Shown here: positions 27,196 to 56,249 of the stretch, in pieces
How the letters are laid out: each line of letters starts with the position of its first letter
How positions within the stretch are numbered: the first letter of the stretch is position 1
Source of the DNA: Mustelus asterias
Taxonomy: Eukaryota
Assembly (NCBI RefSeq): GCF_964213995.1
Contig: NW_027591796.1
Location: forward strand, 1 to 64,000
Length of the DNA: 64,000 bases
Direction of reading: 5' to 3'
The notes under the pieces: model-generated
Seen by the model: the letters and a program-made list of their open reading frames with translations, nothing else
The model's database searches: none
What the model was told of the DNA's origin: nothing
Program-made: the position numbers and the translations under genes

Positions 27196-27843
27196 TGAGT
27201 TATAGAAGATCAGCCCTCATTCTTCGAAACTTTGAGAGAATAGAGGCCCAGTCTCCTCCGAGGAAACTTCCACCCTTCCATGGATTTGTCGAATGAACCC
27301 TTGCTCCACTCCCTCTATTGCAAGTGTATCCTTCCTTTAGTAAGGAGACAAAAGCTCCACACAATACTCCAGGTAATGCAGCAAGAGTGTGGGACAGTTA
27401 TTTACAGCTTTCGGGGAACAAGATAGAAAATAATGCTTCATAGAAATTAACAACTGCCAATTGTAGATTCTATCCTTAACTGACGGTGATGAAATTTGTA
27501 AACCTCTTTTACAGGATCTTCAAAGGGGGAGGATTTGCAGACACAAATTTCAAATCAAGCATCAAGTGAAGAATTGACAGAGTCACTCGATTATCAGGAT
27601 CTGAATATCATTAGCCTTTGAATCTGGAAGGAGAAATGTCTTTCCGTTCTGTTTGCTTCAGAAAGTTTTAAACATCAGTGTGACTGGAAAAGCAGCAAGA
27701 CACAAACATCTGGGTGAGAGTGTTCCAGTGACAGTTACATAGTTTGAAAGACCATCACCATTTACACCAGGAAGAGATTGTACAGACGCTTTGTGTGGCC
27801 ACCTCAGCTGAACAACAAACCTGGAGACAGGGACACCCGCACC

Positions 27844-28602
27844 ATGGAGAAACCGTGGAAATGTGGGGATTGTGGGAAGGGATTCAAATCCCCGTCTCAG
27901 CTGGAAATTCATCGACGCAGTCACACTGGGGAGAGACCGTTCACCTGCTGTTATTGTGGTCAGGGATTCACTCATTCATCCCACCTGCTGAGACACCAGC
28001 GGGTTCACACCAAGGAGAGGCCGTTCACCTGCTCCGAGTGTGGGAAGACCTTCACTACTTCATCTGATCTGCTGACACACCAGCGGATTCACACTGGGGA
28101 AAGGCCATTCACTTGCTCTGAGTGTGAGATGGGATTCAGTCGGTTATCTCACTTGCAGGCACACCAGCGAGTTCACACCGGGGAGAAGCCGTTCACCTGC
28201 TCTGATTGTGGAAAGGGATTCTCTCACTCCTCCAACCTGCGGATACACCAACGCGTTCACACTGGGGAGAGGCCGTTCACCTGTACTGAGTGTGGGAAGG
28301 CATTCATTGACTCATCAAGCCTGCGGATACACCAACGAGTTCACACCAAAGAGAGACCGTTTACCTGCTCTGAGTGTGGAAAGGGGTTCAGTCGGTCATC
28401 TTTCCTGAAGGCACACCAGCGGATTCACACTGGGGAGTGGCCACCCACCTGCTCTGAGTGTGGGAAAGCATTCATTGATTCATCCAGCCTGCAGATACAC
28501 CAGCGTCTTCACACTGCGGAGAGGACATTCACCTGCTCTGAGTGTGGGAAGAGATTCAGTCGGTCAATCTACCTGCGCAACCACCAGCGAGTTCACAAGT
28601 GA
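27844..28602 (+). CDS. Tandem C2H2 zinc-finger protein B (9 fingers)
   Basis: Strong Kozak [21 protein letters not shown]..., ends HQRVHK*. Confidence 0.88.
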
Positions 28603-29493
28603 TGACAGGGATTGGATTCTGCTGCTATTGCTGCTGTTAATCACACCCAGGACTGAACCATGTTCATTCTGACAGTTGGTGAATTGGGAGGATCAGAAGA
28701 TCCTGGATCAGAAGGTCCAGCTCTGCTGGATTGGTCTTTCTCACGACTTTGCTTCCAGTGGGCTGGGAGAGCACATTTCCACAAATGAACCACACAAGCT
28801 GATGAAGGACATTTATTTTATCCTGGATAGTAAATCCTACTTCTCCTTCAAGTAGCTCTAAAATAAATACATTTGTCTCTGTTCCAGTGAGTCTACAACA
28901 CAGGGCCGGGCCAGTCGGCTCAATTGGTCTGTGTCAGTATTTATGCTCCACATGAGCCTCCACCCACCCCTCTTCATCTCCCCCCCCCATCAGCATATCC
29001 TTCTATTCCTCTCTCCCTCATGTATGTATCTAGCTTCCCCTTCAATGTGTTCATGCTGTTCACCTCAACCACTCGCTGTGGGAGTGAGTTCCACATTCTC
29101 ACCACTCGCTGGTAAAGAGATTTCTCATTAAATCCGTACTGGATTATTGAACCCCTTCATAATCTTGAAGACTTCCGTCAGTCTTCAGTTTTCCAGAGAA
29201 AAGTAACACCGGCGTTTTCAGAGGGTTAAATGCTCTCAGTTCCGGGATTATTCTCATGGGGTAAACCGGTCAGTCCCATTGCCCCGTTCTATCCCTTTAT
29301 CCTTTCAGTTCTATTTCCTGCAAGTGTCCGTCCATTTTCCTTGTTAAATCGTTCATTGTCTCTGCTTCCACCACCCTCACAGGCAGTGAGTTCCAGCTCA
29401 TTCCCACTCATTGCATAAAACATCCCTTTCTCACATCCCCCTGCATCTCTCGCATCCTTATCCTTGCACCATCAGCTAATGGGAACAGCTTTA

Positions 29494-29815
29494 TCATAGA
29501 ATCATAGAAACCCTACAGTGCAGAAAGAGGCCATTTGGTCCATCGAGTCTGCACCGACCACAATCCCACCCAGGCCGTACCCCCATATCCCTACATATTT
29601 ACCTGCTAATCTTCTAACCTACACATCTCAGGACACTAAGGGACAATTTTAGCATCTTTGGACTGTGGGAGGAAACTGGAGCACCCGGAGGAAACCCATG
29701 CAGACACGAGGAGAATGTGCAAACTCCACACAGACAGTCACCCAAGCCGGGAATCGAACCCAGGTCCCTGGAGCTGTGAAGCAGCAGTGCTAACCACTGT
29801 GCCATCGTGCCGCCC
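29494..29815 (-). mobile_element. HE1-like SINE
   Basis: Head, core and tail as in other copies. Confidence 0.85.
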
Positions 29816-30958
29816 CACCTTCTCACATTACATTACTCACATCACTTTACCTTCTCACATTATTTAATCCTATTTTAATTTTTTACACCTTGAGCAAATC
29901 TCCCCTCCATCTCCTTTTCTCCAAGGAGAACAACCCCAGCTTCTCCAGCCTAGCCTTGTGGATAAAATTCCTCATTCCTGGAACCATCCCGGTAAATCTC
30001 CTCTGCACTCTCTCAAGGACCCTCACGTCCTTCCAAATGTGTGGTGACCAGAACTGGGCTCAGTGTTCTGTTGTGGCCTCACCCAGAGCTTTAGAAACTA
30101 TCAGCATAACCTCCCTGCTTTTGTTCTCAATTCCTCAGTTTCTGAAGCCCGAGATCACATAGTCTCCAGATGGGAATGGTCAACATTTTTGCTTGAACAT
30201 AAAATGCATTTTAACAACAGTTTGGCTGAAGAAGATTTTGTCCAATGAAGGAAAGAGTTGTTGACACAAAAAGAAGCCATTTTGAACTTGCTCTCTCCAA
30301 AAGAGAATCCAGAATGTGAGATTCTGGGAAATGAAATTAAAAATGAAGCTGCAGCTACAACAGAGCAAGAAGAAGACATTTCAATGTGGAATTGACTGGA
30401 ATATTCTCTCTGGATTTAAACAATGGAGAAACTGCAAACATGGAAGAAAGTAAAGTTCAAAACGTGCACTCTGAACAGACTGTTTTCAAAACTGAAGTTG
30501 AAAATTCACAGATGAACAGCAATGAGGACTCTCCTCTTGCAGGAGGAACTTTGCACAATAATTATTATAAGAAGAAAAACTTCAGAAAACACTGAAACCA
30601 ATAATATTTTCTATCTTCAGTGGACTGAGATTCCTGGACATGGAACCCAGCAGTGTGCTGTTACCAAGCTGGACTTGTGACTGTGAAGTGGACAATGGGG
30701 GGGATTATTATGTCTATTGCAGGTTATAGGGTAATTAAACATTAGACTTTGGAACGGGAGTTGGCCATTTGGCTCTTTGAGCCTGCTTCACCATTTGATA
30801 AGATCACAACTATTTAGATATACAGCATGTTGTACATTGTTAAAAGCAAAATACTGTGGATGCTGGAATCTGAAACAAAAACACAAAATGCTGGCAAATC
30901 TCAGCAGGTCTGACAGCATCTATCGGGAGAGAGAAGAGCCAATCTTTCGAGTCTACAT

Positions 30959-32010
30959 TGTAATGTTTCAAATGGGATAATACGAGGATGATACATTTTC
31001 ATTTCTTCATGGGGAAGGTGTTGCAAAGATCTAATTTCATAATTCCGATGTTTTAGAAGTATGAATTAGTTCAACAATTGCTTTTTTTAAAACTTAAGGT
31101 AAATGGAAAACCTGCACTGAGAATCTGACAGAAACACCCTAAGGGGATTCACATTCACAAGACGTGGCCAATGTTGGTTTAAGATGTCAAAACTCGAAGG
31201 GTGAGAAGTGTAAAAGGGCAGCTGGGCTCTTTTAGCTGGAGACCTGGAGACTTTGGTTCTGACAGTTAGTGCCCTGTCTTTGTTAGAGAACGGAATTCTT
31301 CATGCAGACCTCAGGAAAAAAAGGTTTAGTTTTGAAGCTAAATATCTATCAGACATCCCAACAGATGTGTTAGCACGGGGATAAGTGAGCCCTGGTTGGA
31401 ATTCTGGGTGTTTCTCACAGAAAGCAAGCAGTCTGCAGTTAGCTTGGAGGCCGTCAGCTATGGAACCAGGAGCTGTGAACCAGCTGTGGGACCAGAAGCC
31501 ACTGGGTCATTGGGAATCAGGGGTGTCCCCAATGTTTAAATCCCTCAGCAAGAAAGCAGCGAAGCCCACGGTTGGACTGAGGAGTCTACAGTTTTGAGGT
31601 CTCAAAGGAAAATTGGAGAATTGTTTAGCCAAAAGCTAATGGAAAGGCCCTCCGTAAAATCTTGGAGCCTGGAGAATAGCTGGAAAAGTGAGGAAAATTA
31701 AAGTGAATTCTGCAGAGCTTTGACATTCCTTTGAGAGTCCCAGGAACATAATTGAACTTTCAAGATATCATTAAGTATAAAGAAAAACTTTTGGGGTGAG
31801 GTTAAAAAACAGGTTTAGACCATAAGTCTTTATTGACTACAGTATTCAGTTTGTAGTGCTGTATTCTTAAATTTTATTTTGTTTGAGATCCACAGTAAAG
31901 TTTGTTTTTGTTTAAAAATGTTAAATCTTTTCATGTAATTCTTTTAGTTAGTCACTGGGTGTTCACAATTTTCTTTAAATTTTAATTATCCCGACCGGGA
32001 TCACAAAACA
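30959..32010 (+). mobile_element. Possible old LTR remnant; its 3' part is duplicated at about 32200-32450
   Basis: TGTAAT start, CCAAT and TATA-like motifs, AGTAAA and ...ACA end; no clear TSD. Confidence 0.3.
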
Positions 32011-32469
32011 TCCACACAAACAATGTTTCAGAGCAAAGCAAAGAAGAAAAAATGTGACTTTCCTCCTTTTGTACAAAGCATTACATATAAAGACACCCCT
32101 CTCCTCAGAACCACAATAAGTTGTTAATATTCTCTTCATGAAATAATCTGATCATTGAAAGACTTATGCTATGTTCATGGTGCTGGCTTTTAATATTTTG
32201 TTGTATAAATTTTGTTCTTGTTTAAAAATGTGGAATCTTGTGTTGCAATTCTTTGTTAATCACTGGGTATTTGAGTTTCTCTTTAAACATTAACAATCCT
32301 GATTAGGATCAGAACAATACACAGCAACATATTTCACAATGAGTCAAAGAAAAAAAATGTACAAAGTATTACATTATAGGACACTGCTGTTCTAGGATCC
32401 ACAATAATTTCTTAGCTCGAGCACTTACTTTAATGAAACAATCTGATATTATGAATAAAATTTATACTA

Positions 32470-34080
32470 ATTGTCGTCCCTTCTAAAGCAGGAGGGCGAT
32501 CGCCCAGCACAGAGGGTAATTTGGGATTTCTCCCATAGACCAATTAACAGGGATTCTACCCTCCAACCACCTGAAGTGAATTCTTTCCCTGAATCGTCCA
32601 GGCCAGTGCAGTTATCAACTTGCAGTTTGGCTGATCAGCTGAGATTTTCTGCAGCATTTCATCGATCACCGTGTGATTCCTTTCACAGAGTCCATCACTG
32701 AAAGGACTTTCAGCTGCCGTGTTCATGACCAGAATGTTCATGTTTTCACACACGTCTCAAAACTCATCATTAACAAATTCCCCTCCATTATCAGTCAGAA
32801 ACTTAGCTGGTGCCCCAGGTCCAGTCCCTGTCCACTTCTCCATCACTTGGTCTAGAATCATCCTTTTGTCCTTGCCATGTATTATTGGAGAAAGACTAAA
32901 TTGGGTCACCATGTCGATCATGTGTAGAATGAAAATATTTCTGTCTTTGTCTCATACCTTTAGATCCACGTAAATACCTCGTTAAGGTCATGTGCCAAGG
33001 GCAGCTTTACAATCGGATGTGACAGCATCCTTCAATACTTTTCACACATTCCACACTTTGCATTAGTCTGTTCTCTGAGCCTCAGATACTCTTCATCAAC
33101 TCTCCTGCATCTTTTTGCGGGATTTTTAATCTTTAACAAGGATAAGAAAATTGTTTGCGTAGCTTTAAGACTGGTTACGGTCTTTATCTCTGGGACGGAA
33201 GGGTAGCACACTGGTTAGCACTTTTGCCTCAGTGCCAGGGACCCGGGTTCGATTCCCGGCTTGGGTCACTGTCTCTGTGGAGTTTGCATGTTCTCCCCAT
33301 GTCTGAGTGGGTTTCCTCCGGGTGCTCCGGTTTCCTCCCACGTTCTGATAGACGTGCTGGTTAGGTGCATTGACCCGAACAGGCGCCGGACTGCGACGAC
33401 CAGGGGAATTTCACGGTATCTGTTTCCCCGTCATTCCTGAGATTCATTCACCTATTAGTGCTTTTCCAATCCTGTCTTTTTTGTGATATCCAGATCTGCT
33501 AAATATACTTACACCCTCATTCAAAACTTGACAAAGTCTGACTATGCTTCACAGGCACCCATCAGATCATCTTTCTTGTAAATCTCATCAATGAAACCGA
33601 GTAAAAGATCCAAACCTTGATCAGTGGATTTCCAGCTCAGAAAATGTTTTGCTGCCAATTTTCCTTTCGTTAGACAGTGGCAATGCCAAGGCCAGACCTT
33701 GTTTTCTCATTGTTAGGGATGGAACCCGTGTCCACATCTCCACTTCATTCTTCCACTGGTCGTATGGTTCAGGCTCCGAGAACATCGGTGGGTAATCAGG
33801 CCCTGACAATTCCCACTGGCTTTCATCTCTCACAAAAGCTGCTGGGATTGTAAACTTCTGTCTGAAATATACTTTCCTCCAGTTTCCAAACTTCACCATT
33901 GGACAAACATTCTCTGTTACCATGTTATAATCCTAACAGCCTTATGGTGAAGGAAGAAACTGGAACCAATCTTTACTTGGAATAGATTTAACTCCCAACT
34001 CTTTATACATACTTTCTTCAAACATACTCATATAATTATTTGATCAAAGCCCTCCATCTGTACATTCTTAAACTCAATTG
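32470..34080 (-). mobile_element. Ty1/copia (GalEa-like) LTR retrotransposon remnant: LTR, PBS, gag, integrase
   Basis: LTR ends ...TAACA then TGGTAACAGAGAATG (tRNA-iMet PBS, 33922-33908); gag YDQWKNEVEMW; integrase IFILHMIDMVTQFS...KFLTDNGGEF...TAAESPFSDGLCERNH. Confidence 0.75.
33193..33420 (+). mobile_element. tRNA-derived SINE inside the copia remnant
   Basis: GGTTCGATTCCCGGCTTGGGTCACTG head and core. Confidence 0.8.
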
Positions 34081-34109
34081 ATTCAATTAACACCCATAGT
34101 CAGGGCAGG

Positions 34110-34380
34110 AATCCGGGTTCAATTCCAGCCTCGGGTGACTGTGTGGAGTTTGCATGTTCTCCTCGTGTCTGTGTGGGTTTCCTCCAGGTGCTCCGATTTC
34201 CTCCCATCTTCTAAAGATGTGCGGGTTAGGTTGATTGGCCGTGGTAAATTGCCCCGTAGCGTCAGGGGGATTGGCAGGGTAAATGTGTAGGTTTACTGGA
34301 GTGGGGCCTGGTTGGGATTGTGGTCGGTGCAGACTCAATGGGCCAAGTGACCTCCTTCTGCACTGTAGGAATTCTGTGAT
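34110..34380 (+). mobile_element. HE1-like SINE, 5'-truncated
   Basis: Core and CR1-like tail. Confidence 0.8.
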
Positions 34381-34601
34381 TAAAAAAAGGTCTCTAAGCG
34401 GTGTGAACTTGTTGGTGTGTCAGCAAGTTGGATGACTGATGACCTTCCCTAAACTCAGAGCAGGGGAATGGCCTCTCCTCAATGTGGACTTGCTGGTGTC
34501 TCAGCAGGTTGGATGAATCAGTGAATCTCTCCTCATAAACAAAACACATCAAAGGTCTTTCCCCAGTGCGACCACATTGGTATTTTAGCAGACTGGATGA
34601 C

Positions 34602-35231
34602 TCAATGAATCCTTCTCTTGGAGCAGGTGAATGGGTTCTTCCTGCTGTGAACTCGCTGGTGTGTCAGCAGGTTGGATGACTGAGTGAATCCCTTCCCACA
34701 TACGGAGCAAGTGAATGGCCTCTCCCCAGTGTGAACTCGCTGGTGTGTCAGTAGATGAGGTGACCGTGTGGATCCCTTCCCACACTCAGCGCAGGTGAAC
34801 AGCCTCTTCCTGGTGTGACTGCGTTGATGTGTCAGCAGACAGGATGACTCAGTGAATGCTTTCCCACACTCAGAGCAGATGAATGGTCTCTCTCCAGTGT
34901 GGATTCGCTGGTGTGTCAGCAAGTTGGATAACTGAGTGAATCCTTTCCCACACTCAGCACAGGTGAATGGTCTCTTCCTGGTGTGAACTCGCTGGTGTGT
35001 CCGCAGGGTAGATGAATCCTTGAATCCCTTCCCACACTCAGTGCAGGTGAGTGGCCTCTCCCCACTATGAACTCGCTTGTGTGTCTGCAGGTGCAATGAC
35101 TGAGTGAATCTCTTCCCACACTCAAAGTAGGTAAAAGGTCTTTTCCCAGTGTGGATGTGTCGGTGAATTTCCAGTTGAGATGGAGCTTTGAATCCCTTCC
35201 CACAGTCCCCACATTTCCACGGTTTCTCCAT
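34602..35231 (-). CDS. C2H2 zinc-finger protein C (7 fingers, one with C>Y; a deletion truncates finger 8 and decayed fingers continue to about 34385); possibly pseudogenising
   Basis: [12 protein letters not shown] with HTGERP linkers; frame breaks at FTCSKRRIH. Confidence 0.7.
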
Positions 35232-36784
35232 GGTGCGGGTGTCCTTGTGTCTCTCCAGGTTTGATGATCAATTGAAGCCTTGTCCACACACACAAAACGA
35301 GTATGGTTTCTCCTCGCTGTGAATGGTGTGATATTTATTTCAGGGTGTGTAATTGGTTAATGGTCTTTCCACAGTCAGTTTGCTGGTACACTCTCACTCA
35401 GATCTGTGTGTCTCGATGCTTTTCCAGTCACATATTTAAACCTTTTGACGCAGACAGAACACCATTTCTTTATACACGCTTTTTTCATACACACTCATAT
35501 AATGATCCAATCAACGCCCTCCATCTGTACATACTTCAACTCAATTCGAGACTGAAAGAGCGATGATATTCAGGTCCTTTTGAATCAAGTGAAAGTGTCA
35601 GGTCTCGGTGTGACATTTGGTTTCAGATTTCTATTGCAAATCTTCTCCTTCTCAAAACCTATAAAAGGAATTTAGAAAAGTCAGCACTGTCAGAACAGCA
35701 GAGAAATTCAGAACACACGATTCTAGTTTCAGTTGAACATTCATTCCTATTTTGTTCACCAAAAGTTGTAAACCTCAATCTCACATATTCCCTCTGCTCT
35801 CACTCTGCTGTATCTAATATACACCCTCACAATTCTCCTGAAGGTGCTGATTGATGCTGAGTGGCAGACCCCTACTCACTGCTTCCTGACCTGGAGACCT
35901 GAAAACCTTGATGCAGACTGCTAGACTCAATACAAACCCAACCCATAGGTACAGATTCTGGAGGAAAACATGTGTTGAATAAACACTGCTGTATTACTTG
36001 CTCAGAGATTCATGACCAGGTCAGTAAGAACTTCATTAAGGTGCTGAGTGTTTACAAACACAAACTCGCTGCTTATGAGAATGCTGGAATTAGAGATGAT
36101 CCAAGATTTCAAACTCAACTGGATGGACAACGGAAGGAAATAATCTTGTGAGATACAGGGGTACAGAGGGAGAATGGGACTGGCTGGATTGCTCTACAGA
36201 GAGTCAGCACGGACTCGAATGAACATTTTCTGTGCTGTAATTAATCAATGACTGGAAAGGTATGTCACCACAGTGCTATATTACAAATTTGAAATAACAA
36301 TAAATGAAATTTATCACCAAACCATAAATAATATATCTAATATGAACCTAACAACAAAATTAGACATAACACTGACCTATATAAAATTACTGTCCCACAA
36401 AGAATCATAAATTTACACCAGATTACACCAAACATATCCAAACATGCCAAACCTTACTATATTCCTCTTAAATGTCAACTATCTCCTGAAGAAACCAGCC
36501 CTTTAATTGTGAACATTAGGAACGAGACCATCCTTTTAGCCAGACAAATAAATGTGTCAAGCTGAGGGAGCAAAAGGATGTCAATGTCTTTCAGAGAGAG
36601 AGAGACCTGGGCCAACCTTTCCAGAGTCTGCAGCCTCCCTGGATTCACTTCGTTTCCCTTCAGTTGCTGCAAGTCCCCAATTTCCCCCAGAATGAGAAAA
36701 GAAATGGAAAGGGGGAGAAAGGAAAGTGTTTCACTCACAGATCTTGGCCTCTTTGGAGGAAGTTTGAGTCCGTCTGAAGCTCAA

Positions 36785-39773: not shown

Positions 39774-40700
39774 TCATTTGTGAACTCGTTGGTGTTTCTG
39801 CAGGGTGTTCGCACGGGTGAATCCTTTCCCACACACTGAGCAGATGGATAATGTCTCCCTGGTGTGACTGTGCTGGTATTTCAGCCGGAGGGAATGCTGA
39901 GTGAATCGCTTCCCACACACACAGCAGATAAATGGTCTCTCTCCAGTGTGAACTCGCTGGTGAATCAGCAGATCCATTTTGCCTTTGAAGCTCTTCTCAC
40001 AGTCTGAACATTTAAAAGGTCTCGTGTCAGAGTGAACACGTTGGTGTGAAGTGAGTTGGGCAGACTGGGTGAATCCCTTCCCACACTCGGAGCAGGTGAA
40101 TGGTCTCACACCAGTGTGAATGCACTTGTGTCTCAGCAAGGTGGATGACTGAGTGAATCCCTTCCCACACACAGAGCAGGTGAATGGTCTCTCCCCAGTG
40201 TGAACTCGCTGGTGATCCAACATTTTGCATAACTGAGCGAATGCCGTCCCGCACTCAGGACAGGTGAATGGTTTCTCTCCAGTGTGAACTCGCCGGTGTT
40301 TCAGAAGGTGGGATAACTGAGTGAATCTCTTCCCACACTCAGTGCACATGAATGGTTTCTCTCCAGTGTGAATTCGCCGGTGTGCCTGCAGGCTGGATAA
40401 CTGAGTGACTCCCTTCCTGCACTCAGCACAGGCGAACCATCTCTCCCCAGTGTGAACTCGATGGTGTGTCAAAAGATAGTATTTGGTTTTAAAACTCTTC
40501 TCACAGTCAGAACATTTAAAAAGTCTCATGTCAGTGTGAACAAGTTGGTGTGCAGTGAGGTGGGTTAGTCGAGTGAATCCTTTCCCACATTCAGAACAAG
40601 TGAACGGCCTCTCCCCAGTGTGACTGCGTTGATGAGTTTCCAGTTCAGAAGGGTAACTGGATCCCTTTCCACAGTCCCCACATTTCAACTGTTTCTCCAT
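39774..40700 (-). CDS. Tandem C2H2 zinc-finger protein D (11 fingers, finger 10 H>Y)
   Basis: Kozak GCACCATGG; 308-aa ORF made of C2H2 repeats. Confidence 0.88.
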   Translation of the reverse strand: MEKQLKCGDCGKGSSYPSELETHQRSHTGERPFTCSECGKGFTRLTHLTAHQLVHTDMRLFKCSDCEKSFKTKYYLLTHHRVHTGERWFACAECRKGVTQLSSLQAHRRIHTGEKPFMCTECGKRFTQLSHLLKHRRVHTGEKPFTCPECGTAFAQLCKMLDHQRVHTGERPFTCSVCGKGFTQSSTLLRHKCIHTGVRPFTCSECGKGFTQSAQLTSHQRVHSDTRPFKCSDCEKSFKGKMDLLIHQRVHTGERPFICCVCGKRFTQHSLRLKYQHSHTRETLSICSVCGKGFTRANTLQKHQRVHK

Positions 40701-41149
40701 GGTGCAGGTGTCCTTGTGTCTCTCCAGGTTGGATAATCAGTTGAAGCCTCATCCACACACAGAACACGTGTATGGGTTCTCCTCGCTGCGAATGATGTGA
40801 TGTTTTTTCAGGCTGTGTAAGTGGTTAAACCTCTTTCCACAGTCAGTTCACTGGAACACTCTCACTCGGGTGTGTGTGTGTCTCGGTACTTTTCCAGTCA
40901 CACTGATGTTTGAAATCTTTTCCAACAGACAGAACAAACATCTCTCCTTCCACATTCAAATTCAAGTCCTGATGAATTAAATGACTGCAAAATCAGCCGA
41001 TAATTTCCTGTCTGCAAATCCTTTCCTTCTAATCCCCAGTAAAATATCTACAGTCACCCGTGATCTAACTGGTGTCTCAGATTTCACAGTAACTCCATTG
41101 CAATGTTAATGTAATCCTTACTTGTGACTAATAGATAAACTTTAAATTT

Positions 41150-44948: not shown

Positions 44949-45707
44949 TCACTCGTGAATTCGCTGGTGTCTCAACAGCTGGGATGAAAGACTGAATCTC
45001 TTCTCACACACAGAGCAGCTGAACGGCCTCTCCCCAGTGTGAATTCCCTGATGTGTCTGCAGGCTGGATAACCGAGAGAATCCCTTTCCACACACAGAGC
45101 AAGTGAACGGTTTCTCCCCAGTGTGAACTCGTTGGTGTCTCTGCTGGCTGGATGAATCACTGAACCGCTTCCCACACTGAGAGCAGGTGAACGGCCTCTC
45201 CCCAGTGTGAACTCGCTGGTGTGTCTGCAGGTGGGATAATCGACTGAATCCCTTCCCACACTGAGAGCAAGTGAACGGCCTCTCCCCAGTGTGAACTCGC
45301 TGGTGTGTCCGCAGGCAGAATAACCGAGAGAATCCCTTCCCACACTGAGAGCAAGTGAACAGCCTCTCCCCAGTGTGAACTCGCTCGTGTGTCCGCAGGC
45401 TGGATAGCTGAGTGAATCCCTCCCCACACTGAGAGCAGGTGAATGGCCTCTCTCCAGTGTGAACTCGCTCGTGTGTCCGCAGGCTGGATAGCTGAGTGAA
45501 TCCCTCCCCACACTGAGAGCAGGTGAATGGCCTCTCTCCAGTGTGAACTCGCTGGTGTTTCTGCAGGATGGATAATAGAGTGAATCCCTTCCCACACTGA
45601 GAGCAGGTGAATGGCCTCTCCCCAGTGTGGCTGCGCCGATGAGCTTCCAGCAGAGATGGGACTTTGTATCTCTTCCCACAGTCCGCACATTTCCATGGTT
45701 TCTCCAT
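44949..45707 (-). CDS. Tandem C2H2 zinc-finger protein F (9 fingers; fingers 3 and 4 are a recent 84-bp duplication)
   Basis: Kozak [21 protein letters not shown]...; [23 protein letters not shown] twice; acceptor at 46053. Confidence 0.88.
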
Positions 45708-46807
45708 GGTGCACGTGTCCTTGCCTCTCTCTTGGGTGGACAATCAGTTGAAGCCTTGTCCACACACAGAACACGACTACGGTCGCTCCCTGCTGTGAAT
45801 GGTGTGATATTTATTCAGGCTGTGTAACTGGTTAAAGCTCTTTAGTCAGTGCATTGGAACACTCTCACTCGAGTGTGGCAGTGTGTTGGTGTTTTTCACA
45901 CTGATGTTTGAAATTTTTTCAAATTGACAGACTGGACAAACATTTCTCCTTCTGGATTCAAAGTCCGATGATATTCAGCTCCCAAGGAATATGACTCTGT
46001 CAGATCTAGACGTGACGTTTGAGATTTCAGCCTGTGATTCCTCTTTCAATGTCCTGTAAAACGAGTTTACAAAAGTCATCAGTGTCAGGACAGGATAGAA
46101 ATTCAGAACAGACAATTTTAGTTTCGATGGAACATTCTTTCCTCTCTCATTCCTCAAAAGCTATAAATCTCCATCCCACACACTCTCCCTCCATTCTCAA
46201 TCTGCTGTATCTAATATTCACCCTCCCAATTCTCCTGAAGGTGCTGATTGAGGCTGATTGACAGATCCATGCTCACTGCTTCCTGTCCACCACACACAAA
46301 TCATAAGAAACAGGAGCTGCAGTTGGCCATTCAGCCCATCGATTGAGAATTAGCTGATCTACCTCAGCACTATTTCTCGCACTATCCCCCAGGTTGCTCA
46401 ATGCCTCAAAAGTTATCAATCTCTCTCTTGAAAATACTTGATGGCTGAGGCTCCACAGTCCTCTGGAGTGCAGAATTCAAACATTTCACCACATCCTTGA
46501 GTGAGGAAATCCCTTCTCATCTTAACTTTCACTCAATTTTCCCACCTGTTCTCCATAATGCTTGACTCCTTTATCAATGTAAAATCTGTCTAACTCATCC
46601 TCGAATATATTCAATAACCCTCAGCTTCCACTGATCCCTGTGGAAGACAAATCCAAAGACCAATGACTCTAATAAGCACGAGATGAATGACTGAAAATAT
46701 ATAATTGACATGATTGACAGATCCATGCTCACTGCTTCTTTTCCTGGACAGTAAGAAGTCTCATAACACCAGGTTAAAATCCAACAGGTTTATTTGGTCG
46801 CAAACGC

Positions 46808-47526: not shown

Positions 47527-49480
47527 TAAGGGCAAACCAAACAAACAAACTCAAGTTAAATCAGGACAAAGTAAAAGGGGCAGCTCCCCAAAAGGAGGGG
47601 GGGAACAGCCCGAACAAAAATCAAAGTACAAAGGAAACTTAAAAACATCAAATCATAATGTGATTATCAGGGTCAATAACGCACCCCAACCCTTGCGGTG
47701 CCCAATGGGCACGGAAGGCGTCAACCGCGCCCGTGGACACCGCATGCTTCCTCTCCAGGGACACCCGGCCGCGAACGTAGCCGCGGTAGAGGGGAAGACA
47801 GTCAGGATGGACGGCCCCCTCGATCGCCCGCTGCCTGGACCGGTAAATGGCGCGTTTTGCCAGGCCCAGGAGCAGGTTCACGAGGAGGTCGCCATCCCGA
47901 CCATCCCCTCTCCGCACCGGGTGTCCGTATATCAGGAGCGTGGGACTGAAGTGCAAACAAAACATCAATAAAAGGTTCTTTAAGAAAACAAAAAGGGAGT
48001 GCAGCCTAAGACACAAAATATAGACATGATCCAAGGACTCCACAAGGCCACAGAAAGGGCAGTCTTCGGAGCCCGTGAACCAGTGAATCCTACGGTTGTG
48101 CGGAACTATGGGCGGCACGGTAGCACAGTGGTTAGCACTGCTGCTTCACAGCTCCAGGGTCCCGGGTTCGATTCCCGGCTCGGGTCACTGTCTGTGTGGA
48201 GTTTGCACATTCTCCTCGTGTCTGCGTGGGTTTCCTCCGGGTGCTCCGGTTTCTTCCCACAGTCCAAAGATGTGCGGGTTAGGTTGATTGGCCAGGTTAA
48301 AAAAATTGCCCCTTAGAGTCCTGGGATTAGCGGGTAAAATATGTGGGGGTCGGGCCTGGGTGGGATTGTGGTCAGTGCAGACTCGATGGGCCGAATGGCC
48401 TCCTTCTGCACTGTAGGATTTCTATGATTTCTATGAACTGCTGCATGCATCACCCTCCACCCCAGGTCCCCATCGTAACTGGGGGAGATCCCTCCGTAGA
48501 GGGACCTCCAGCGGGGACCTCCGCCGCCCGGCGGCAACAAGGCCCGCCAAGGTGTATCCAGGCGACAGGCGAGGAGGCGGTAGTGGAAGGTGTGCAGCAG
48601 CAGCCCGCACAGGAAACGCCTCCGCGTGGTAGAAAAAGGCACGGAGGACATTTCCGCGAGGCGGCTCAGGCTGTGGGGCACCTCACCCAGGGGAGGGGGC
48701 TGAGGTTTTGGGCCAATGTGGAATTCCGTCTGAACAGGGGAACGCTCGGGCGGGATCCCACCGCACGCCTGCGCCGTCTCAAGTTTGCGTGCAGTTTCGG
48801 GGCCGAGCACGACCGTCCTAAGGTCTAGGATGGCTTTGGCCGCGCGCCGGACGGTCGTCCCCGCGCGCTCAGCCAGCACGCGGGGACTCATCCAGCCCGC
48901 TCCTCCGCCATCGAGCACATCCCCGATTCTGGTCACCCTGGCGTCCACAGCCCTCCTCTCCGCCAGCCACCTGAAGTTATACGGCTGGAGGAGCGGATTC
49001 CTGAGCAGCGGCTCTCGCACGAGAGCCGCTACTCCTGACGGGGGGGAGCTGCGTCACGAGGCGACTGTGTTCCAGACAGTGAGGAGGTCCTGGTAAAAGA
49101 TGGGCAACTCCTGCAGGGCGGTCGAAGCATGCCCCAATTCGATATGCAGGAGCTGCACGTCATAATTGAGGCCGTGCCACTGGCGGAAGAAATATGTCGC
49201 CATGGCACACCATTGTGGAGGGGGCTCAACGTAAAGGTACCTCAGCAGAGCCTGGAGGCGGAAGGTCGCTATCTGAGTGCGGAGGCACACCAGACCTTGT
49301 CCGCCCTCCTCAAGCGGGAGATGCAGAACCGCAGCAGGGACCCAGTGCAGTCGATTGTCCCAGAAGAACCGCAGGAGGGTACTCTGGATATCGGCGACAA
49401 AGCCAGGGGGAGGGGTCAAAGGGACCAGCCGGTACCACAGCATGGAGGCGAGCAGCTGGTTTATGACGCAAACCCGCCCC
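47527..49480 (-). mobile_element. Tx1-clade (L1-like) LINE, 5'-truncated ORF2 C-terminus
   Basis: VINQLLASMLWY...FFWDNRLHWV...LPLEEGGQGLV, DLGWRVMHAAV, zinc knuckle CPFCGLVESLDHVYILC, NLLLGLAKRAIYRSR; CpG-rich, so probably young. Confidence 0.85.
48109..48435 (+). mobile_element. HE1-like SINE inserted in the Tx1 element
   Basis: Full head, core and tail; splits HAAV/PHNRR with a short GAACT duplication. Confidence 0.88.
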
Positions 49481-50065
49481 TGTGAATGGTCACAAACACT
49501 CACCTCTGAAACAATTTAACTGATTTTAATATTAAAATCTCCTGCTGGAGCCTGCAGCTGGAAAGATATCAGAAGCATTGGCATCAGAGAAAAATCTCCC
49601 AGTTGAGGAAATCCCCGGGGAGTGGGGGTGATGTCACTGTGCAATTGTAAGTAATTGTAAGAATACCTGGGTCTGTGCAAACCAGTGATCACCACACATT
49701 ATGGAGGATGTGAGGCTCCTTGACAGGGTGCAGAGGAGATTTATCAAAATGGTTCCAGAGATGAGGAATTATAGTTACAATGTTAGGCTGGATAACTTGG
49801 GGTTGTTCTCCTTGGAGCAGAGTAGATTGATAGAGGTGTACAAGAGTACATGGAGGTGTCAAAATTTACATGCTCTGTTTACACGTGTACAAGCTCTGAC
49901 TATGGGTCATCCAGACTCGAAACGTTGGTTCTATTCTCTCTCCACAGATGCTGTCAGATCTGCTGAGATTTTCCAGCATTTACTGTTTTTATTTCCCTTT
50001 CTTTTTCCTTCTCTGTCACCGCTCTGCCTCATCAATAAGACATTGGGACTCAAAGGGTTGATGCA

Positions 50066-50550
50066 GTTTGATGGACAAGTTGTCTCCATTCTGAACACTG
50101 GGGAACAAGCGCCTCCCACTGATTGACAATATTGCCCTCGACAAACATGGCGGCCGCACGTGCGCACTGCTGCATATTGCCCCCAATAAAGATGGCGAAC
50201 GTTAACCCGGGACGAACATGAGGAGCTACAGCCCCGCTCGGTCCAAACTGGGTCCGGGAAGCTCTCTTCCGCGGTTTGCGCCTTACACAACATGGTTACG
50301 CAGCGTTTTCACCCACCTGGGCGATCCATTGCTCTCTCCGTACCGCCAATCACCTCGAACAGATTTCCGAGCCGAAAACATCCGCTTTCCATCGCCATTA
50401 CTCACACTGCGCGTGCTCGAGTCAAAGCTGGCCCCGCCCCTCTTTGGCTCCTATTGGTTGGAGGACCGACTACTCCAGATGGGTCATCCAGCCCCGCCCC
50501 CTCTTCCCATTGGTCCGCGCTGCCGTCAATCAGCCAGACATTGTGACGGT
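50066..50550. promoter_or_regulatory. Duplicated CpG promoter cassette, copy 2 (inverted relative to 42500-43020)
   Basis: GTTTGATGGACAAGTTG...CCCCCAATAAAGATGGCG...TTAACCCG and ATTGGTTGGAGGACC...CCCCGCCCC are reverse complements of the 42.5-43 kb block. Confidence 0.7.
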
Positions 50551-50586
50551 AACTTGCTGTTTGTCCAATAATCACAGTGACAGAGT

Positions 50587-50947
50587 CTGAGTGTAACAAT
50601 GACACACACAGACTCCAATACAATCAGAGTGGGGATGGAGCACAGAGACAACACAGCAAAGCACTGACTTACTCTGAGTGTAACAATGACACACACAGGC
50701 TCCAATACAATCAGAGTGGGGATGGAGCACAGAGACAACACAGCAAAGCACTGACTTACTCTGAGTGTAACAATGACACACACAGGCTCCAATACAATCA
50801 GAGTGGGGATGGAGCACAGAGACAACACAGCAAAGCACTGACTTACTCTGAGTGTAACAATGACACACACAGGCTCCAATACAATCAGAGTGGGGATGGA
50901 GCACAGAGACAACACAGCAAAGCACTGACTTACTCTGAGTGTAACAA
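50587..50947 (+). repeat. 87-bp tandem repeat, about 4.1 near-identical copies
   Basis: CTGAGTGTAACAATGACACACACAGGCTCCAATACAATCAGAGTGGGGATGGAGCACAGAGACAACACAGCAAAGCACTGACTTACT at 50587, 50674, 50761, 50848. Confidence 0.95.
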
Positions 50948-53900
50948 ATACAATGTTTGTTCAAATAATAAGAGTCACGTTGCAGTATGTTAGTGAACAC
51001 AGCATTTGATCCAATGTAATGGTAATACAGTCAGTATCTAGTGCACCATAACCAAAGTTTAGGCTTTATTTGATGGTGTGAGTGAGTCGTGGTCTATTGA
51101 TATAATGTATTTAGATTCCAGTGTGTGTTACTCTGCCACTGTCAGTATCAGACAATAACCTGTCTGTTATTCCAATTCTGCTGTATTTTACAACTGCAGC
51201 TCCTGGGGCTGATTGGAATCTAGTATAATAACAATCACAAAGGTCGGTTCCAGTGTCTCTGAGGTCATTTTAACTGCAGGTAATCTGGCATTAAGGGAGA
51301 CGACACCCAACAAACATTCGATTATGATAGGAGGACAAGCTGTAAAGGAGCAATGATATTTTAAGGTGTCTATGTCAGTGTGTCATTGGGAGGTGAGTGA
51401 TAAAATAGAAGTGGAAACATCACGACAGAGACGTGTGACTGACTCGGCCGGACTGAGAGCTGTTATACTCGAGGCGAGAATAATGAGGACATGGGGAACT
51501 CCAGGGATTTCTGATATCTGAGGTGTATCTGTTCGAGGAACTGAAAATAATCAGTTCCTTCTGATGGCTATCTGCAGTTCTCAAGTTACACACAGGAAAC
51601 AGATCGGACAGCTCATCAAACCCAATGTTTAAATCTTCTGTTTGAGATACATTGTGACTGAAAAGATCAAATATTAAAACCTCAGGAGAGAAACATTCAG
51701 AATGTCACCAAGATGAGTGAACTGTCCAATTAATCCCATTCACCATAACTCTGCCAATTTACCTTCTGCAAGTATTTATCCAATTCCCTTTGAAAGTTAC
51801 TATTAAACCTGCTTCTGGCACCTGTCAGTTTGTGCATTCCAGATCATATCAAGTTATTGTGTAAAAAATTCTCCACATCACCCCCTCCAGTTCCGTTGTC
51901 AATTATATTAAATCTCTGTATCCTCTGCTTACAGACCCTCCTGCACCGAGGAAATCGATTCTCTCCATCGACAGACCCTCGTGCTCCTGGGAGATAATTC
52001 CTCTCCATTGACACTATCATAAATCATTTGTCATTTTAAACATCTCTATTAAATCGCCCCATCACATTCCCCAATCTAAGATGGATAACCCATGTTTTTC
52101 CTGCCCTGAAGAATTATATGGACTCAAAATGTTAACTGTTTCTCTCTGAACAGATGCCGCCGGACCTGCCGGGTTTTTCTGCTTCTCTCCCTGTTTTTCC
52201 CTCTATAATCAATCAGAAACTCTTCATGATTTTGAACATCTTGATCAAATAGGAACACACAAAGCCTGAGAAAGATACAGAGGAAAGAAGAGACAGAAAG
52301 ACTGAGAGAAAAATTGAGAAAGATTTTAAAAAGCAGAAAGATGAGACGGTCAAAGATAAAAGCTGAGAAACAGAGGAAACAAGCAATACAGAGAGAATGC
52401 TCTGTATATAAGGGAGCAGGCTATCAGTTCCCAGCTATGGGGAGCAGAGGGAACTCAGTAACTGATCCACAGACACAGCTGGTTATATCTGCGAATGGAA
52501 ACTCTGAACAGAAATAACAGGCTCATTTGTAAATGTCACCACAATGTGACCTGTGTGACTCTGCCCTGACTCTGTGGACAGATATCGGCCGCATTGACAG
52601 ATGTTCTCACCAGATTGTTGTCCCTGGATTTATTTTCTGCTCAGAAGTGAGATGTGAGGTTTGGAACCGGCAGCAGAGAAACAGGAAGTTGTGTTACCTG
52701 AGAATGAAACAGCCGGTGTCAGTTTGATGTTATCACAGTGAACAGTCTTCCTTCCTGTGAGGGTGAACTCACTCTGACAGCATCAAGAACAACCACACAG
52801 ATTGCTGCCAGTCTCAGCATTACATTCAGCTCCATTCCCATTTTAAACAATGAAGAAAGGAGATTATTTGGACTTTTAACACATTCACTGAATTGGGAGA
52901 TGGACTGAGGGTCATCACTGGGAGAAATGAGGAGGAATTAGAGAACAAATGAGTTTTCCCAAAGAGGGTTATTAGAAAAGAGGCGATTTAAAGTGAGTCA
53001 GGGCCTGTCAGAGGCAGTGGGAGAGAGGAACAGAGAGGATTGAATCTCCATCAATTAGATGTTTTCTCAGACAGCGAAGAGATGAAGTGTATTTGTGCTT
53101 TTTCAGAGAGAGGTAATGAGAGAGAGAAAACAATGAACAAGTTTAAGCATTATCTGAAATAGGAAGGTTAAATGAGTGAGTGTTTGAAAGAAAGAAAGAG
53201 AGACATTAAGTGATGAAGACAGTTTCTGAGAGGAGAGAGGTTAAGTGAATGTGAGAGAGGAGCGAGGTTAGAGTGTAAGAGACGTGGAAGGTGAGGTAAG
53301 TGTGAGTGAATGCCTGGAGAGAGAGAGAGACAATTCAGTGAGTGTGAGAGAGATGAGAGATGTTAAGTAAGTGAATGTCTGAAAGAGAGGAGAGCAGGTT
53401 CACATCCAGGGATCACTGAGAATGATCAAAATAAGGAGATCACCCAGAAAACTACCAACAGGAAACTTCAGCTGAACACATCACTCATTCTTAAATGATC
53501 AGTCAGGGCTCTGATGCTGCTCAGCTTCTCTCTGTTCTGTTTATTATGGTTAAAGGCTGATAGGAGTGAGGTTTATTGAAAAGGATAGTGTATGGGAAGC
53601 ACACATCAACAAAACTGAGAATTCTTGGACACACACTGCAGCTCCTTCTCTGTCTGGGAATCAAATTGTTGTCTAATTGTCCCAGCAGTTAACAGGGTCC
53701 TTTGAACGTCTCCAGCTGCTACTTTAATGCAGACTTCAACCAATTTATTTGAAGCCAGTTTCTGTTCAATAAACCAGGACTGACACACACACACATTAAA
53801 ATGTTTTACACTTTTTTTCATTTTGAGTCTGGAAACCTAAACCTGCCGTTTCACTCTCAGTCAGGAATAGATCCCAGTTTTACACCAATCTTTGACAGCA

Positions 53901-54325
53901 CGTTTCCAGCATTCACCATTGTTCTTCCTGACTCTAAAGGCAGTTGTAAAGGAGCTTCTTTTCCGTGTCTAGGAGCTCTGAACCATGGAAAAGAATGACT
54001 GGGACACATTTCTTACACTCCTCAGGATTCACCCACACGGGGACTTTGCTGTCAGTGAAAAGTGACGAAAAAGACCAAAGTGCTGTGTGACCCTCTCAGC
54101 GTGACCCTGAAGGACTGGGTCAAGAATGAAGTTCTGTTCCTACTGTATGATCCTCCCTCAGATTGCCCTTTCTGAGCTCCAGCCTGGTGACGTTAAACAC
54201 TCAAATGGAAAAGACAAAAATCTACAACAATGATTCAATCAAATGTCTATTTCACATTTATTCAGAATATCAAACCTCAACAGAAGAAAAAAGTCAGAGA
54301 GAACATGATTCAGTCCTGGATATGA

Positions 54326-55288
54326 TTAACAGCATCGATAAGTGGAGAATCCAAACCTTGCAGTCGTTTGTGAACTCGCCGGTGTGTTAGCAGGTGGGAT
54401 GACTGAATAAATCCCTTTCCAGACATTACAGGTGAACGGCCTCTCCCCAGTGTGAACTCGCTGGTGTTTCAATAGGTTGGGTGAAAGAGTGAATCCCTTC
54501 CCACACACGGAGCAAGTGAATGGCCTCTCCTCACTGTGAACCTGCTGGTGTGTCAGAAGGTTGTATGAATGGGTGAATCCCCTCCCACATTCAGAGCAGG
54601 TGAACGGTCGATCCCCTGTATGGAGCTGCTGGTGTATCAGAAGGTTGGATGAATTAATAAATCCCTTCCCACAGTCTGAGCAGGTGAAGGGCCTCTCCCC
54701 AGTGTGAATTCTCTGGTGGTTCAATAGGGCAGATGGGCGGCTGAATCCCTTCCCACACACACAGCAGGTGAATGGCCTCTCCCCAGTGTGAGTATATTGG
54801 TGCGTCAGCAGATCTTTTTTGTTTTTAAAGCCCTTCTCACAGTCAGAACAATTAAAAAGTTTGTTGTCAGAGTGAACAAGTTGATGTGTCTGCAGGTGGG
54901 ATGACTGAATGAATCCTTTCCCATACACAGAGCAGGTGAACAGTCTCTCCTCAGTGTGAATGCATTGGTGTGTCAGCAGATCTTTTTTGCATTTAAAACT
55001 CTTCCCACAGTCAGAACATGGAAACAGTCTCTCATCAGTGTGAACAAGTTGGTGTGTCACAATGTGGGATGAGCGAGTGAACCCCTTCCCACACACAGGG
55101 CAGGTGAACAGCCTCTCCCCAGTGTGAACCCGTTGGTGAGTCAGAAGGTTGTATGAATGGGTGAATCCCTTCCCACAAACGGAGCAGGTGAACGGTCTCT
55201 CCCCAGTGTGACTGCGCCGATGAACTTCCAGTTGTGATGGGAAACCAAATCCTTTCCCGCACTCCACACATTTCCACGGTTTTTCCAT
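54326..55288 (-). CDS. Tandem C2H2 zinc-finger protein G (10 fingers, one with C>Y; frameshift in finger 11)
   Basis: Kozak GCACCATGG, MEKPWKCVECGK...; C-terminus shifts frame at FTCNVWK. Confidence 0.82.
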   Translation of the reverse strand: MEKPWKCVECGKGFGFPSQLEVHRRSHTGERPFTCSVCGKGFTHSYNLLTHQRVHTGERLFTCPVCGKGFTRSSHIVTHQLVHTDERLFPCSDCGKSFKCKKDLLTHQCIHTEERLFTCSVYGKGFIQSSHLQTHQLVHSDNKLFNCSDCEKGFKNKKDLLTHQYTHTGERPFTCCVCGKGFSRPSALLNHQRIHTGERPFTCSDCGKGFINSSNLLIHQQLHTGDRPFTCSECGRGFTHSYNLLTHQQVHSEERPFTCSVCGKGFTLSPNLLKHQRVHTGERPFTCNVWKGIYSVIPPANTPASSQTTARFGFSTYRCC

Positions 55289-56249
55289 GGTGCTGGTGTC
55301 CTTGTGTTTCTCCAGGTTGGATGATCAGTTGAAACCTCGTCCACACACACAACATACATGTAGATTCACCCTGCTGTGAACTGTGTGATGTTTTTTCAGG
55401 CTGTGTAACTGGTTAAAGCTCTTTCCACAGTCAGTTCACTGGAACACTCTCAATCGGGTGTGTGTTTGTTTCAATGCTTTTCCGGTCACACTGATGTTTA
55501 AAATCTTTGCCGACAGACAGAAGAGTCAAACATTTCTCCTCCCACATTCAAAGACCAATAATATTCAGCTCCTAATGAACAAAATGACTTTGCCAGTCAT
55601 GATGTTTGGTTTGAGTTTTCTGTCTGCCAATCCTCCAATTACAATATCCTGTAAAAAAAAATTTGGAAAAGCCATCAGCGTCAGTCCAGGATAGAAATCC
55701 TGAACAGACAATTCTAGTTTCTCTGGGACATTTTTTCCTCTCTTGTTCCCCAAAATCTGTAAATCCCTGTCCCACACACTCTCCCTCCTCCCTGGGCTGA
55801 AATCCAAACCCATCTCACCATTTATTTCCTCCACTCCCAGTTTTCTCCCTCGCTCTCCTCTGTCTGGGTTCAGTTCTCCAGCTCCTGTCTGCAGACTGAC
55901 AATAAAACCAATGGGTCTTATTGGGGGTGTTGGGGCCTCCAGCGGGTGTTTGTGAATCCTCCCCGCCCACCTCCCAGGGTTTCCTTCCTTCCCAGAGATC
56001 AGAGTCCTCATTGATTTGAGGCCAAAGTGTAACCTCTTATTTGTTGTCCCCCTCCCCCATCCTCTGATGTGAACCATCCTCCAGTGGCTGAGCCAGGATG
56101 GGGCCGTTAACCTGGGCCTGTTCCCGGGAGGGAGGGAGGGAGAAGCCCCGCAGCTGCAAACCAGGGAGCTGACAATGATTCTGAAGGGTTTGCGGATCCA
56201 CAAAGTGTTTCCAAATCCTCCCAGCCACCGCCTAACGCTGACTCCGCTT

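What the first reader, a model, noticed from the sequence alone, without database searches (positions are those of the whole stretch)
27510..55660. Five ZNF paralogs keep fossil zinc fingers with a shared UGA in the 5' leader, upstream of a strong-Kozak MEK start
Upstream of MEK in ZNFs C, D, F and G, the same exon reads in frame as ...CG(R/Q/*)GFN-TGA-(S/L)S.L/Q..(H/G)KDT.T-ATG. The TGA is exactly 13 codons before the ATG in all four, and B has it at the homologous position after a small indel. D, G and B also share TGA at the first Cys of the preceding finger (VFQ*TDCGK), where F has TGC. ZNF A still reads through that finger (GQDFNQSS). So 2-3 ancestral fingers became untranslated leader and were copied through the cluster, yet the DNA still aligns well. 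This suggests either a retained translational-control leader (reinitiation or low-level UGA readthrough) or simple founder inheritance.
Basis: partly seen in the sequence, partly recalled or inferred. Interest (0 to 1): 0.7.

Follow-up and report, generated by a model that had tools for sequence, protein, structure and literature searches.

The report
Shark zinc-finger genes' inherited dead leader
Five zinc-finger genes here, like many hundreds of relatives in this shark-like genome, carry three broken zinc fingers and a shared stop codon in front of their start codon; this is likely a scar copied from one founder gene that moved its start, not a translation switch, although one 60-base patch of the dead stretch changes unusually slowly.

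Summary
In detail: C, D, F and G have TGA 13 codons before ATG, B has it off-frame, and A reads through that finger. The trait is family-wide: 925 exact first-finger matches in the genome, and TGA in 79 of 97 sampled paralogs picked without regard to the leader. A belongs to a sister class that starts one finger earlier and has CGA/CAA at the stop and mostly Gly at the ATG. The dead fingers show no protein constraint (dN/dS 0.76-1.54; intron 0.86-1.11; coding 0.30-0.48). They are frameshifted in 10-12 of 19 subfamily representatives. The TGA is kept no better than off-frame TGAs. Only 4 of 71 genes could make a readthrough product, and upstream ORFs are not conserved. Contigs of other organisms, guessed to be RNA, keep the leader and the stop. 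Verdict: founder inheritance, not recoding or reinitiation. Residue: about 60 nt of the middle dead finger changes at about 0.6 of the local non-coding rate, with no codon or fold signal, so either a cis element or gene conversion. The scan reported this family before on other DNA.

The parts
21265..22221 (-). ZNF A, class I (finger -1 still in an open frame; CAA at the stop position, 22149-22147). The usual class I start codon reads TTG here (22221); the first in-frame ATG is at 22179
   Evidence: 22179 counted from the translation
27515..27843 (+). ZNF B leader part of the last exon (acceptor to ATG) with dead fingers; TGA at Cys 27729-27731; shared TGA 27809-27811, off-frame
27844..28602 (+). 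ZNF B ORF, 252 aa, 9 C2H2 fingers; Pfam shows zinc-finger models only among the 25 best of 30 listed
35232..35658 (-). ZNF C leader (427 nt); shared TGA 35270-35268
34602..35231 (-). ZNF C ORF, 209 aa, 6 fingers
40701..41035 (-). ZNF D leader; acceptor reads TG; TGA at Cys 40850-40848; shared TGA 40739-40737
39774..40700 (-). ZNF D ORF, 308 aa, 10 fingers
45708..46053 (-). ZNF F leader (346 nt); TGC at Cys 45853-45851; shared TGA 45746-45744; donor-like site 569 nt before the ATG
44949..45707 (-). ZNF F ORF, 252 aa, 9 fingers
55289..55648 (-). ZNF G leader (360 nt); TGA at Cys 55438-55436; shared TGA 55327-55325
55394..55453 (-). Slowly changing 60-nt patch in the middle dead finger (-165 to -106), given here for gene G
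54326..55288 (-). ZNF G ORF, 320 aa, 9 canonical fingers
56395..56450 (-). Likely promoter of G: two CCAAT boxes 1156 and 1113 nt before the ATG; likeness to close paralogs drops near here
   Evidence: promoter role inferred

Best explanation
These genes belong to a family of at least 925 copies whose ATG sits where most genes of a sister class have the glycine of a finger-to-finger linker, and the dead fingers and shared TGA in front are likely a founder's scar, copied by duplication and now decaying as ordinary 5' untranslated sequence. Steps. (1, shown) In the sister class, finger -1 is in the open frame, with CGA/CAA/CGC at the stop position and mostly Gly at the MEK start. (2, inferred) One founder gained an ATG in the TGEKP linker; the -3 A and +4 G of the strong Kozak context were already there in the linker codons. 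It also took a CGA-to-TGA CpG change and lost its upstream start. (3, inferred) This happened before horn sharks and sawsharks parted. (4, shown) The leader now tolerates frameshifts and Cys/His loss, while the first coding finger does not. (5, inferred) Ribosomes reach the MEK ATG by ordinary scanning past a variable set of upstream ATGs and make bare finger arrays. (6, inferred) Slow shark mutation and exchange between copies keep the leader alignable.
For: dN/dS on 55 paralogs: middle finger 0.93, last finger 0.76 (off-frames 1.08, 0.87), first dead finger 1.54, intron frames 0.86-1.11, coding 0.30-0.48. Metal ligands in 102 class II genes: dead-finger Cys/His kept in 68, 54, 61, 83, 85, 51, 58 and 7 copies; next finger's Cys 96 and 99 of 102. 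Length changes not a multiple of 3 occur in 10-12 of 19 representatives in each dead finger and the intron, against 0 of 19 in the coding start. The TGA at -39 is kept in 79 of 97, against 81/89, 86/95, 77/91 and 92/96 for off-frame TGAs in the leader; 34% of leader trinucleotides change as little. The ATG was not in the search pattern yet is kept in 100 of 102. The second-His codon is CGC/TGC/CAC, a CpG decay pattern. Fifteen of 102 lack an aligned stop at -39 in the masked alignment (one keeps a TGA beside a gap); 14 of the 15 have ORFs of 196-381 aa. Twelve of 102 lack the first dead finger and acceptor; 7 of those have ORFs of 224-345 aa. 149 of the 150 best in-frame matches hold a stop, and the one without is frameshifted before its array. 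Shark proteins from Heterodontus and Pristiophorus show the HKDT..(M/T)EK junction. Epaulette shark mutation rate is 7e-10 per base per generation (PMC10587355, abstract).
Against: The 60-site window starting at -166 has 0.56 of expected differences (column permutation p=0.0002; CI for the core 0.46-0.77), and the middle finger is the slowest partition (0.68). dN/dS of the last dead finger is slightly below 1 (log-likelihood drop 2.1 at omega=1). In 19 representatives the three stop letters differ at only 0.38 of expectation (3 sites, CI 0-0.59), and any stop is kept in 87 of 97. Coding 4-fold sites change faster (1.67) than the leader or intron, so the neutral baseline is uncertain, and the intron control keeps only copies that still align. 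No translation data. The RNA nature of the laid runs is a guess.
Confidence: 0.75

Rival explanations
1. Founder scar with a second job: the 60-nt patch in the middle dead finger became a family-wide DNA or RNA element, for example a site bound by one family member that recruits silencing chromatin, as human ZNF274 does on zinc-finger genes. This is compatible with the best explanation for everything else.
For: Slowest 60-site window, p=0.0002. The middle finger is slower than its flanks in all three older classes of paralog pairs, and equal to the first dead finger in the youngest. No codon signal (omega 0.93). Missing in only 2 of 102, against 12 of 102 for the upstream part. 498 exact genomic matches to a 34-nt pattern from it. 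ZNF274 precedent: PMC2999557, abstract.
Against: The mid-intron is about as well kept: 34-mers within one mismatch in 6-12 of 38 clusters, against 8-10 for the patch; rate 0.79 against 0.72. Copies are mosaic: within one large subfamily the last finger differs by 0.04 and the first by 0.29, which suits gene conversion or misalignment. Closeness to the ATG explains its retention. No folding signal (mean z +0.11; empty consensus fold). The permutation test treats columns as independent.
Confidence: 0.2
2. Reinitiation leader: upstream ORFs in the dead fingers throttle translation of the finger array.
For: 66 of 71 intact genes have at least one upstream ATG in the leader exon (mean 2.6). An ATG at the start of the first dead finger gives an 11-15 codon ORF in B, F and G.
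Against: Number and place vary (0-8). Only 4 of 71 have an ORF ending at the shared stop, and 14 of 71 have ORFs overlapping the main ATG. The G of the commonest upstream ATG changes 17 times on the tree, among the more variable non-CpG sites. New ATGs are not clearly avoided or favoured (34 seen against 45.4 expected; control CAT 33 against 38.7).
Confidence: 0.06
3. Low-level UGA readthrough or selenocysteine insertion yields longer isoforms with extra fingers.
For: The stop is TGA in 79 of 97 and stays in frame with the ATG in 70 of 80. One TGA sits at a Cys codon in B, D and G.
Against: Only 4 of 71 have an in-frame upstream ATG with an open frame to the stop, none in this window. The finger lacks its second His in 95 of 102. 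The stop replaces Arg/Gln, not Cys. TGA-to-TAA occurs 8 times. The context is mostly TGA TTG or TGA TCA; UGA CUA (PMC4359377, passages) is not among the 12 commonest contexts, which cover 71 of 80. The Cys TGA is in 15 of 102. No Rfam hit, SECIS included, in 21000-57000.
Confidence: 0.02
4. The dead fingers are intronic: transcripts splice past them into the array.
For: Several predicted shark proteins join other sequence just after the stop position (P0035, P0095, P0096), but these look like gene-prediction workarounds.
Against: The AG acceptor about 350 nt upstream is kept in 80 of 86 aligned copies. Contigs of four organisms run from the leader across the ATG, and one leaves the gene at the acceptor (records 2, 12, 20, 28, 21). 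The AG inside VFQ changes 11 times.
Confidence: 0.03

Closest known systems
Lineage-specific tandem C2H2 zinc-finger expansions: tetrapod KRAB-ZNFs and cyprinid FiNZ-ZNFs (PMC10547256: abstract start and passages seen)
   Same: Hundreds of clustered poly-C2H2 genes with TGE(R/K)P linkers; Cys/His fixed while helix positions of the first finger change often; many broken copies (87 of 100 with ORF of at least 150 aa).
   Different: The predicted proteins start at the first finger, with no N-terminal effector domain in the ORF; the start codon sits in a linker; a dead three-finger leader is shared. That paper's main text has no hit for shark, chondrichth or cartilaginous. PMC8455134 (passages) reports KRAB-domain families as enriched among those lost in cartilaginous fishes.
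Programmed stop-codon readthrough at UGA CUA(G), such as LDHB and AQP4 (PMC4359377, passages)
   Same: A recurring UGA with in-frame sequence behind it.
   Different: Context not met; no upstream in-frame start in 67 of 71; no protein constraint upstream.
ZNF274 binding at the 3' ends of human ZNF genes (PMC2999557, abstract)
   Same: A sequence shared across a ZNF family could serve as a common chromatin handle.
   Different: There the site lies at 3' ends of genes and binding is shown; here it is a non-coding dead finger 5' of the start and nothing is shown bound.

Membership tests
Tandem Kruppel-type C2H2 ZNF family under birth and death | Arrays of C2H2 fingers joined by TGE(R/K)P linkers | tested here: met
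   6-10 fingers per ORF; Pfam zf-C2H2 E=4.8e-65 for B
Tandem Kruppel-type C2H2 ZNF family under birth and death | Large clustered paralog set with intact and broken copies | tested here: met
   925 exact pattern matches, clustered among the 100 places listed; 87 of 100 ORFs of at least 150 aa
Tandem Kruppel-type C2H2 ZNF family under birth and death | Purifying selection on the finger scaffold | tested here: met
   omega 0.30 for codons 23-42, omega=1 rejected
KRAB-ZNF / FiNZ-ZNF | N-terminal KRAB or FiNZ effector domain in frame with the array | tested here: not met
   ORFs begin at finger 1 behind an in-frame stop; no KRAB among the 25 best Pfam hits shown for B. FiNZ not scanned by name; upstream exons not searched for domains.
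KRAB-ZNF / FiNZ-ZNF | Binding and silencing of transposable elements | not testable with these tools
   needs ChIP or knockdown
Programmed UGA readthrough | Upstream in-frame start with an open frame to the UGA | tested here: not met
   4 of 71; 0 of 5 in the window
Programmed UGA readthrough | Leaky context UGA CUA or a downstream stimulatory fold | tested here: not met
   contexts; mean folding z -0.7 after the stop
Programmed UGA readthrough | Protein-level conservation on both sides of the stop | tested here: not met
Selenoprotein | UGA at a Cys-homologous codon in an open frame plus a SECIS | tested here: not met
   shared UGA aligns to Arg/Gln; Cys UGA in 15 of 102; no Rfam hit at gathering score
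Conserved uORF / reinitiation leader | Upstream ATG and ORF end conserved across paralogs | tested here: not met
Conserved uORF / reinitiation leader | Translation of the uORF changes main-ORF output | not testable with these tools
   needs ribosome profiling or reporters
Conserved non-coding cis element (middle dead finger) | Slower than neutral without codon signal | tested here: inconclusive
   slower than flanks (p=0.0002) but not clearly slower than mid-intron

The most novel reading that the evidence does not exclude
A dead zinc finger was re-used: about 60 nt of it became a shared non-coding handle through which roughly a thousand effector-less shark zinc-finger genes are regulated together, for instance by a family member binding it, giving a KRAB-free self-control loop.
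Probability: 0.2. Interest if true: 0.65.

Novelty: new variant of a known kind. Interest (0 to 1): 0.33.

Why it matters
The recoding idea fails, so the shared stop is ordinary. What remains is a shark zinc-finger expansion of about a thousand genes whose predicted proteins have no effector domain. How such proteins act in a lineage reported as short of KRAB genes is open. The scar gives a clean lineage marker for the family and explains why gene predictors invent upstream exons for these genes. If the slow 60-nt patch is a real element, it offers one handle to test or perturb the whole family. I found no paper on this leader in seven searches (four of these were aimed at the shark family), which cover open-licence papers only.

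Tried and rejected
(1) Upstream ATGs looked depleted against dinucleotide shuffles (185 against 539). Rejected as selection: live fingers are as poor in ATG (10.3 against 9.5 per kb), and new-ATG counts are close to the CAT control. (2) RNA structure in the slow patch or after the stop: none; Rfam none. (3) Mobile-unit idea: homology ends between paralogs are scattered, mostly -150 to -1800 upstream and at finger boundaries downstream; terminal repeats and target duplications were not searched. (4) Intact relatives reading through the middle and last dead fingers: none among the 150 best-scored of 19,703 candidates; not exhaustive. (5) Protein searches with the read-through leader gave mostly generic ZNFs (74 hits) or 2 Heterodontus models. 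(6) No RNA holder listed on record; summed contig depths were not used as evidence. Run X20 laid nothing, which proves no absence. (7) The 30 loci and the loci were chosen on leader sequence and were left out of all rates. (8) Branch-wise gain counts of upstream ATGs were not obtained; tip counts stand in for them. (9) Pfam found nothing in three ORF pieces at 47.6-49.5 kb. Supplements were not read.
Full report
Observation. Six C2H2 arrays lie between 21.2 and 55.3 kb. Genes C, D, F and G have TGA starting 39 nt before an MEK ATG. B has the aligned TGA 35 nt before its ATG, so off-frame, and A has CAA there in an open frame. TGA replaces the first Cys of the preceding finger in B, D and G; F has TGC and C has CAA.

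Scale. A 271-nt piece of G drew 3,960 candidates in the genome. A 34-nt pattern from the first coding finger, which leaves out the ATG and the leader, has 925 exact matches. I fetched 100 stretches, 97 of them around the first 100 listed places, and extracted 114 first fingers including the window's, 110 after exact duplicates were removed. Eight were set aside as class I or unalignable, leaving 102 class II genes; ATG stands at the start in 100 of them. The sample comes mostly from two contigs and holds two large subfamilies (28 and 25 copies), so rates were also taken on cluster representatives.

Anatomy. The last exon begins at an AG about 350 nt before the ATG (kept in 80 of 86 aligned copies). 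It holds a spacer, three dead fingers (here F-3, F-2, F-1) and then the ORF. Class I genes have the same spacer but start one finger earlier at M-E-x-K-S-T-V-H (ATG in 7 of 8; gene A has TTG). In the six class I genes aligned, the codon at the stop is CGA, CGA, CAA, CAA, CGC or CCA, and the codon at the MEK start is GGG, GGG, GGA, GAG, GCA or AGG. So the stop is one CpG change from Arg, and the start sits at the Gly of a TGEKP linker whose codons already give A at -3 and G at +4. The order of events is inferred, not tested on a rooted tree.

Range. Named proteins show MEKPWKC starts or the HKDT..(M/T)EK junction in Mustelus, Chiloscyllium, Cetorhinus, Heterodontus and Pristiophorus, and class I starts in Cetorhinus and Scyliorhinus. 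Three ray proteins read through the spacer and a degenerate F-1 without the junction. That Heterodontus and Pristiophorus lie on opposite sides of the basal shark split is recalled. Four ray or skate proteins among 20 hits do not show that class II is absent there. Contigs from coded organisms, guessed to be RNA, bridge leader and ATG (four runs), and one leaves G at its acceptor. Loose-end consensus in two runs reads TTC AAC TGA (11 and 4 contigs).

No protein constraint. dN/dS on 55 fully aligned paralogs is 0.93 (F-2), 0.76 (F-1) and 1.54 (F-3); off-frames give 0.87-1.28, intron frames 0.86-1.11 and the coding start 0.30-0.48. F-1's value is only weakly below 1. Dead-finger Cys and His are kept in 7-85 of 102 copies, against 96 and 99 for the Cys of the second coding finger (the first finger's ligands were part of the selection). 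Frame-breaking length changes occur in 10-12 of 19 representatives in each dead finger and the intron, and in 0 of 19 in the coding start.

The stop is not special. It is TGA in 79 of 97 and any stop in 87, against 85-96% retention for four off-frame TGAs in the same leader; among 38 representatives it is 29 of 36 against 31/34, 29/34, 24/33 and 33/35. Against this, in the 19 fully aligned representatives its three letters differ at 0.38 of expectation, on three sites only. Readthrough needs an upstream in-frame start, which is present in 4 of 71 intact genes and none in the window. The high-readthrough context UGA CUA (PMC4359377, passages) is not among the 12 commonest contexts. No Rfam family matches 21-57 kb. 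Of the 150 best in-frame matches to F-2/F-1, 149 contain a stop, and the other is frameshifted before its array.

Upstream ORFs are not conserved. Intact genes carry 0-8 upstream ATGs (mean 2.6), and 14 of 71 have one that overlaps the main start. An apparent ATG deficit against shuffles disappeared under better controls.

Leader against intron. Relative rates from a partitioned model: intron 0.76, acceptor region 1.21, spacer 1.25, F-3 1.11, F-2 0.68, F-1 1.04, coding third positions 1.50, first and second 0.87. Composition-adjusted, the three dead fingers together are 0.97 (CI 0.86-1.08) and the intron 0.79 (0.67-0.91). Paralog pairs differ by up to 31%. With 7e-10 mutations per base per generation in a shark (PMC10587355, abstract), good alignment needs no selection; generation time and family age are assumptions. 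Caveats: the intron control keeps only copies that still align, and coding 4-fold sites run faster (1.67), so the true neutral rate is uncertain.

The residue. A 60-site window from -166 has 0.56 of expected differences (permutation p=0.0002), with no codon signal and no fold. A 34-nt pattern from it has 498 exact genomic matches (no matched genomic control was run). But mid-intron 34-mers are kept in as many clusters (6-12 of 38 against 8-10), and copies are mosaic, so gene conversion or mutation-rate differences are as likely as selection. A shared handle of the ZNF274 kind (PMC2999557, abstract) is the boldest reading, at about 0.2.

Known kinds. This is a tandem ZNF expansion like KRAB- and FiNZ-ZNFs (PMC10547256, passages, which has no hit for shark terms), but with ORFs that start at finger 1. 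PMC8455134 (passages) reports KRAB families enriched among losses in cartilaginous fishes. PMC11620358 (abstract) shows ribosome stalling on translated finger arrays in zebrafish; it gives no support for a leader role. Seven searches turned up no description of this leader.

Earlier scan notes. One note from another genome and three from other pieces of this genome reach the same founder-scar reading, and one notes the slow patch. My reading was stated before the first look-up, and the patch was measured. The claim of two intact relatives in e1-8850973 was not reproduced by my limited search.

Verdict. A real feature and an ordinary mechanism: founder inheritance 0.75, recoding or reinitiation under 0.1, interest 0.33.

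Noticed in passing
L088, L089, L093, L098 (G000 contig C23): In several paralogs a promoter-like stretch lies directly against the middle dead finger, with the intron and first dead finger gone; L088 and L098 are head-to-head pairs about a kilobase apart. Many keep long ORFs.
   Followed up: partly
window:47500-49515 (-): CpG-rich broken ORF pieces 2-4 kb upstream of gene F, same strand, that recall a non-LTR retrotransposon (recalled likeness; Pfam gave no hit). Earlier notes describe Tx1 elements homing to first exons of this family.
   Followed up: partly
window:24600-26800: Long array of short C/A-rich repeats giving open frames of 655-724 codons on the + strand, between genes A and B.
   Followed up: no
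window:41260-41450 (-): Further broken finger pieces upstream of gene D's leader; D's acceptor reads TG, so D may be fused to or read from a dead neighbour.
   Followed up: no
window:22221 (-): Gene A has TTG where its close paralogs L116 and L137 have the class I ATG; it would start at a later ATG or at a near-cognate codon.
   Followed up: partly
L001 (G000:C2208:9763-10033): A 100% identical copy of the 271-nt piece of gene G on another contig: a haplotig or a very recent duplicate.
   Followed up: no
intron, -520 to -430 before the ATG (gene F about window:46130-46210): A purine-rich mid-intron stretch is as well kept among paralogs as the slow leader patch; two contigs guessed to be RNA hold the matching stretch of G (records 22 and 29).
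   Followed up: partly
window:58185-58730 and 61677-62141 (+): Reverse-transcriptase fragments (Pfam RVT_1, E=2e-14 for the first).
   Followed up: no
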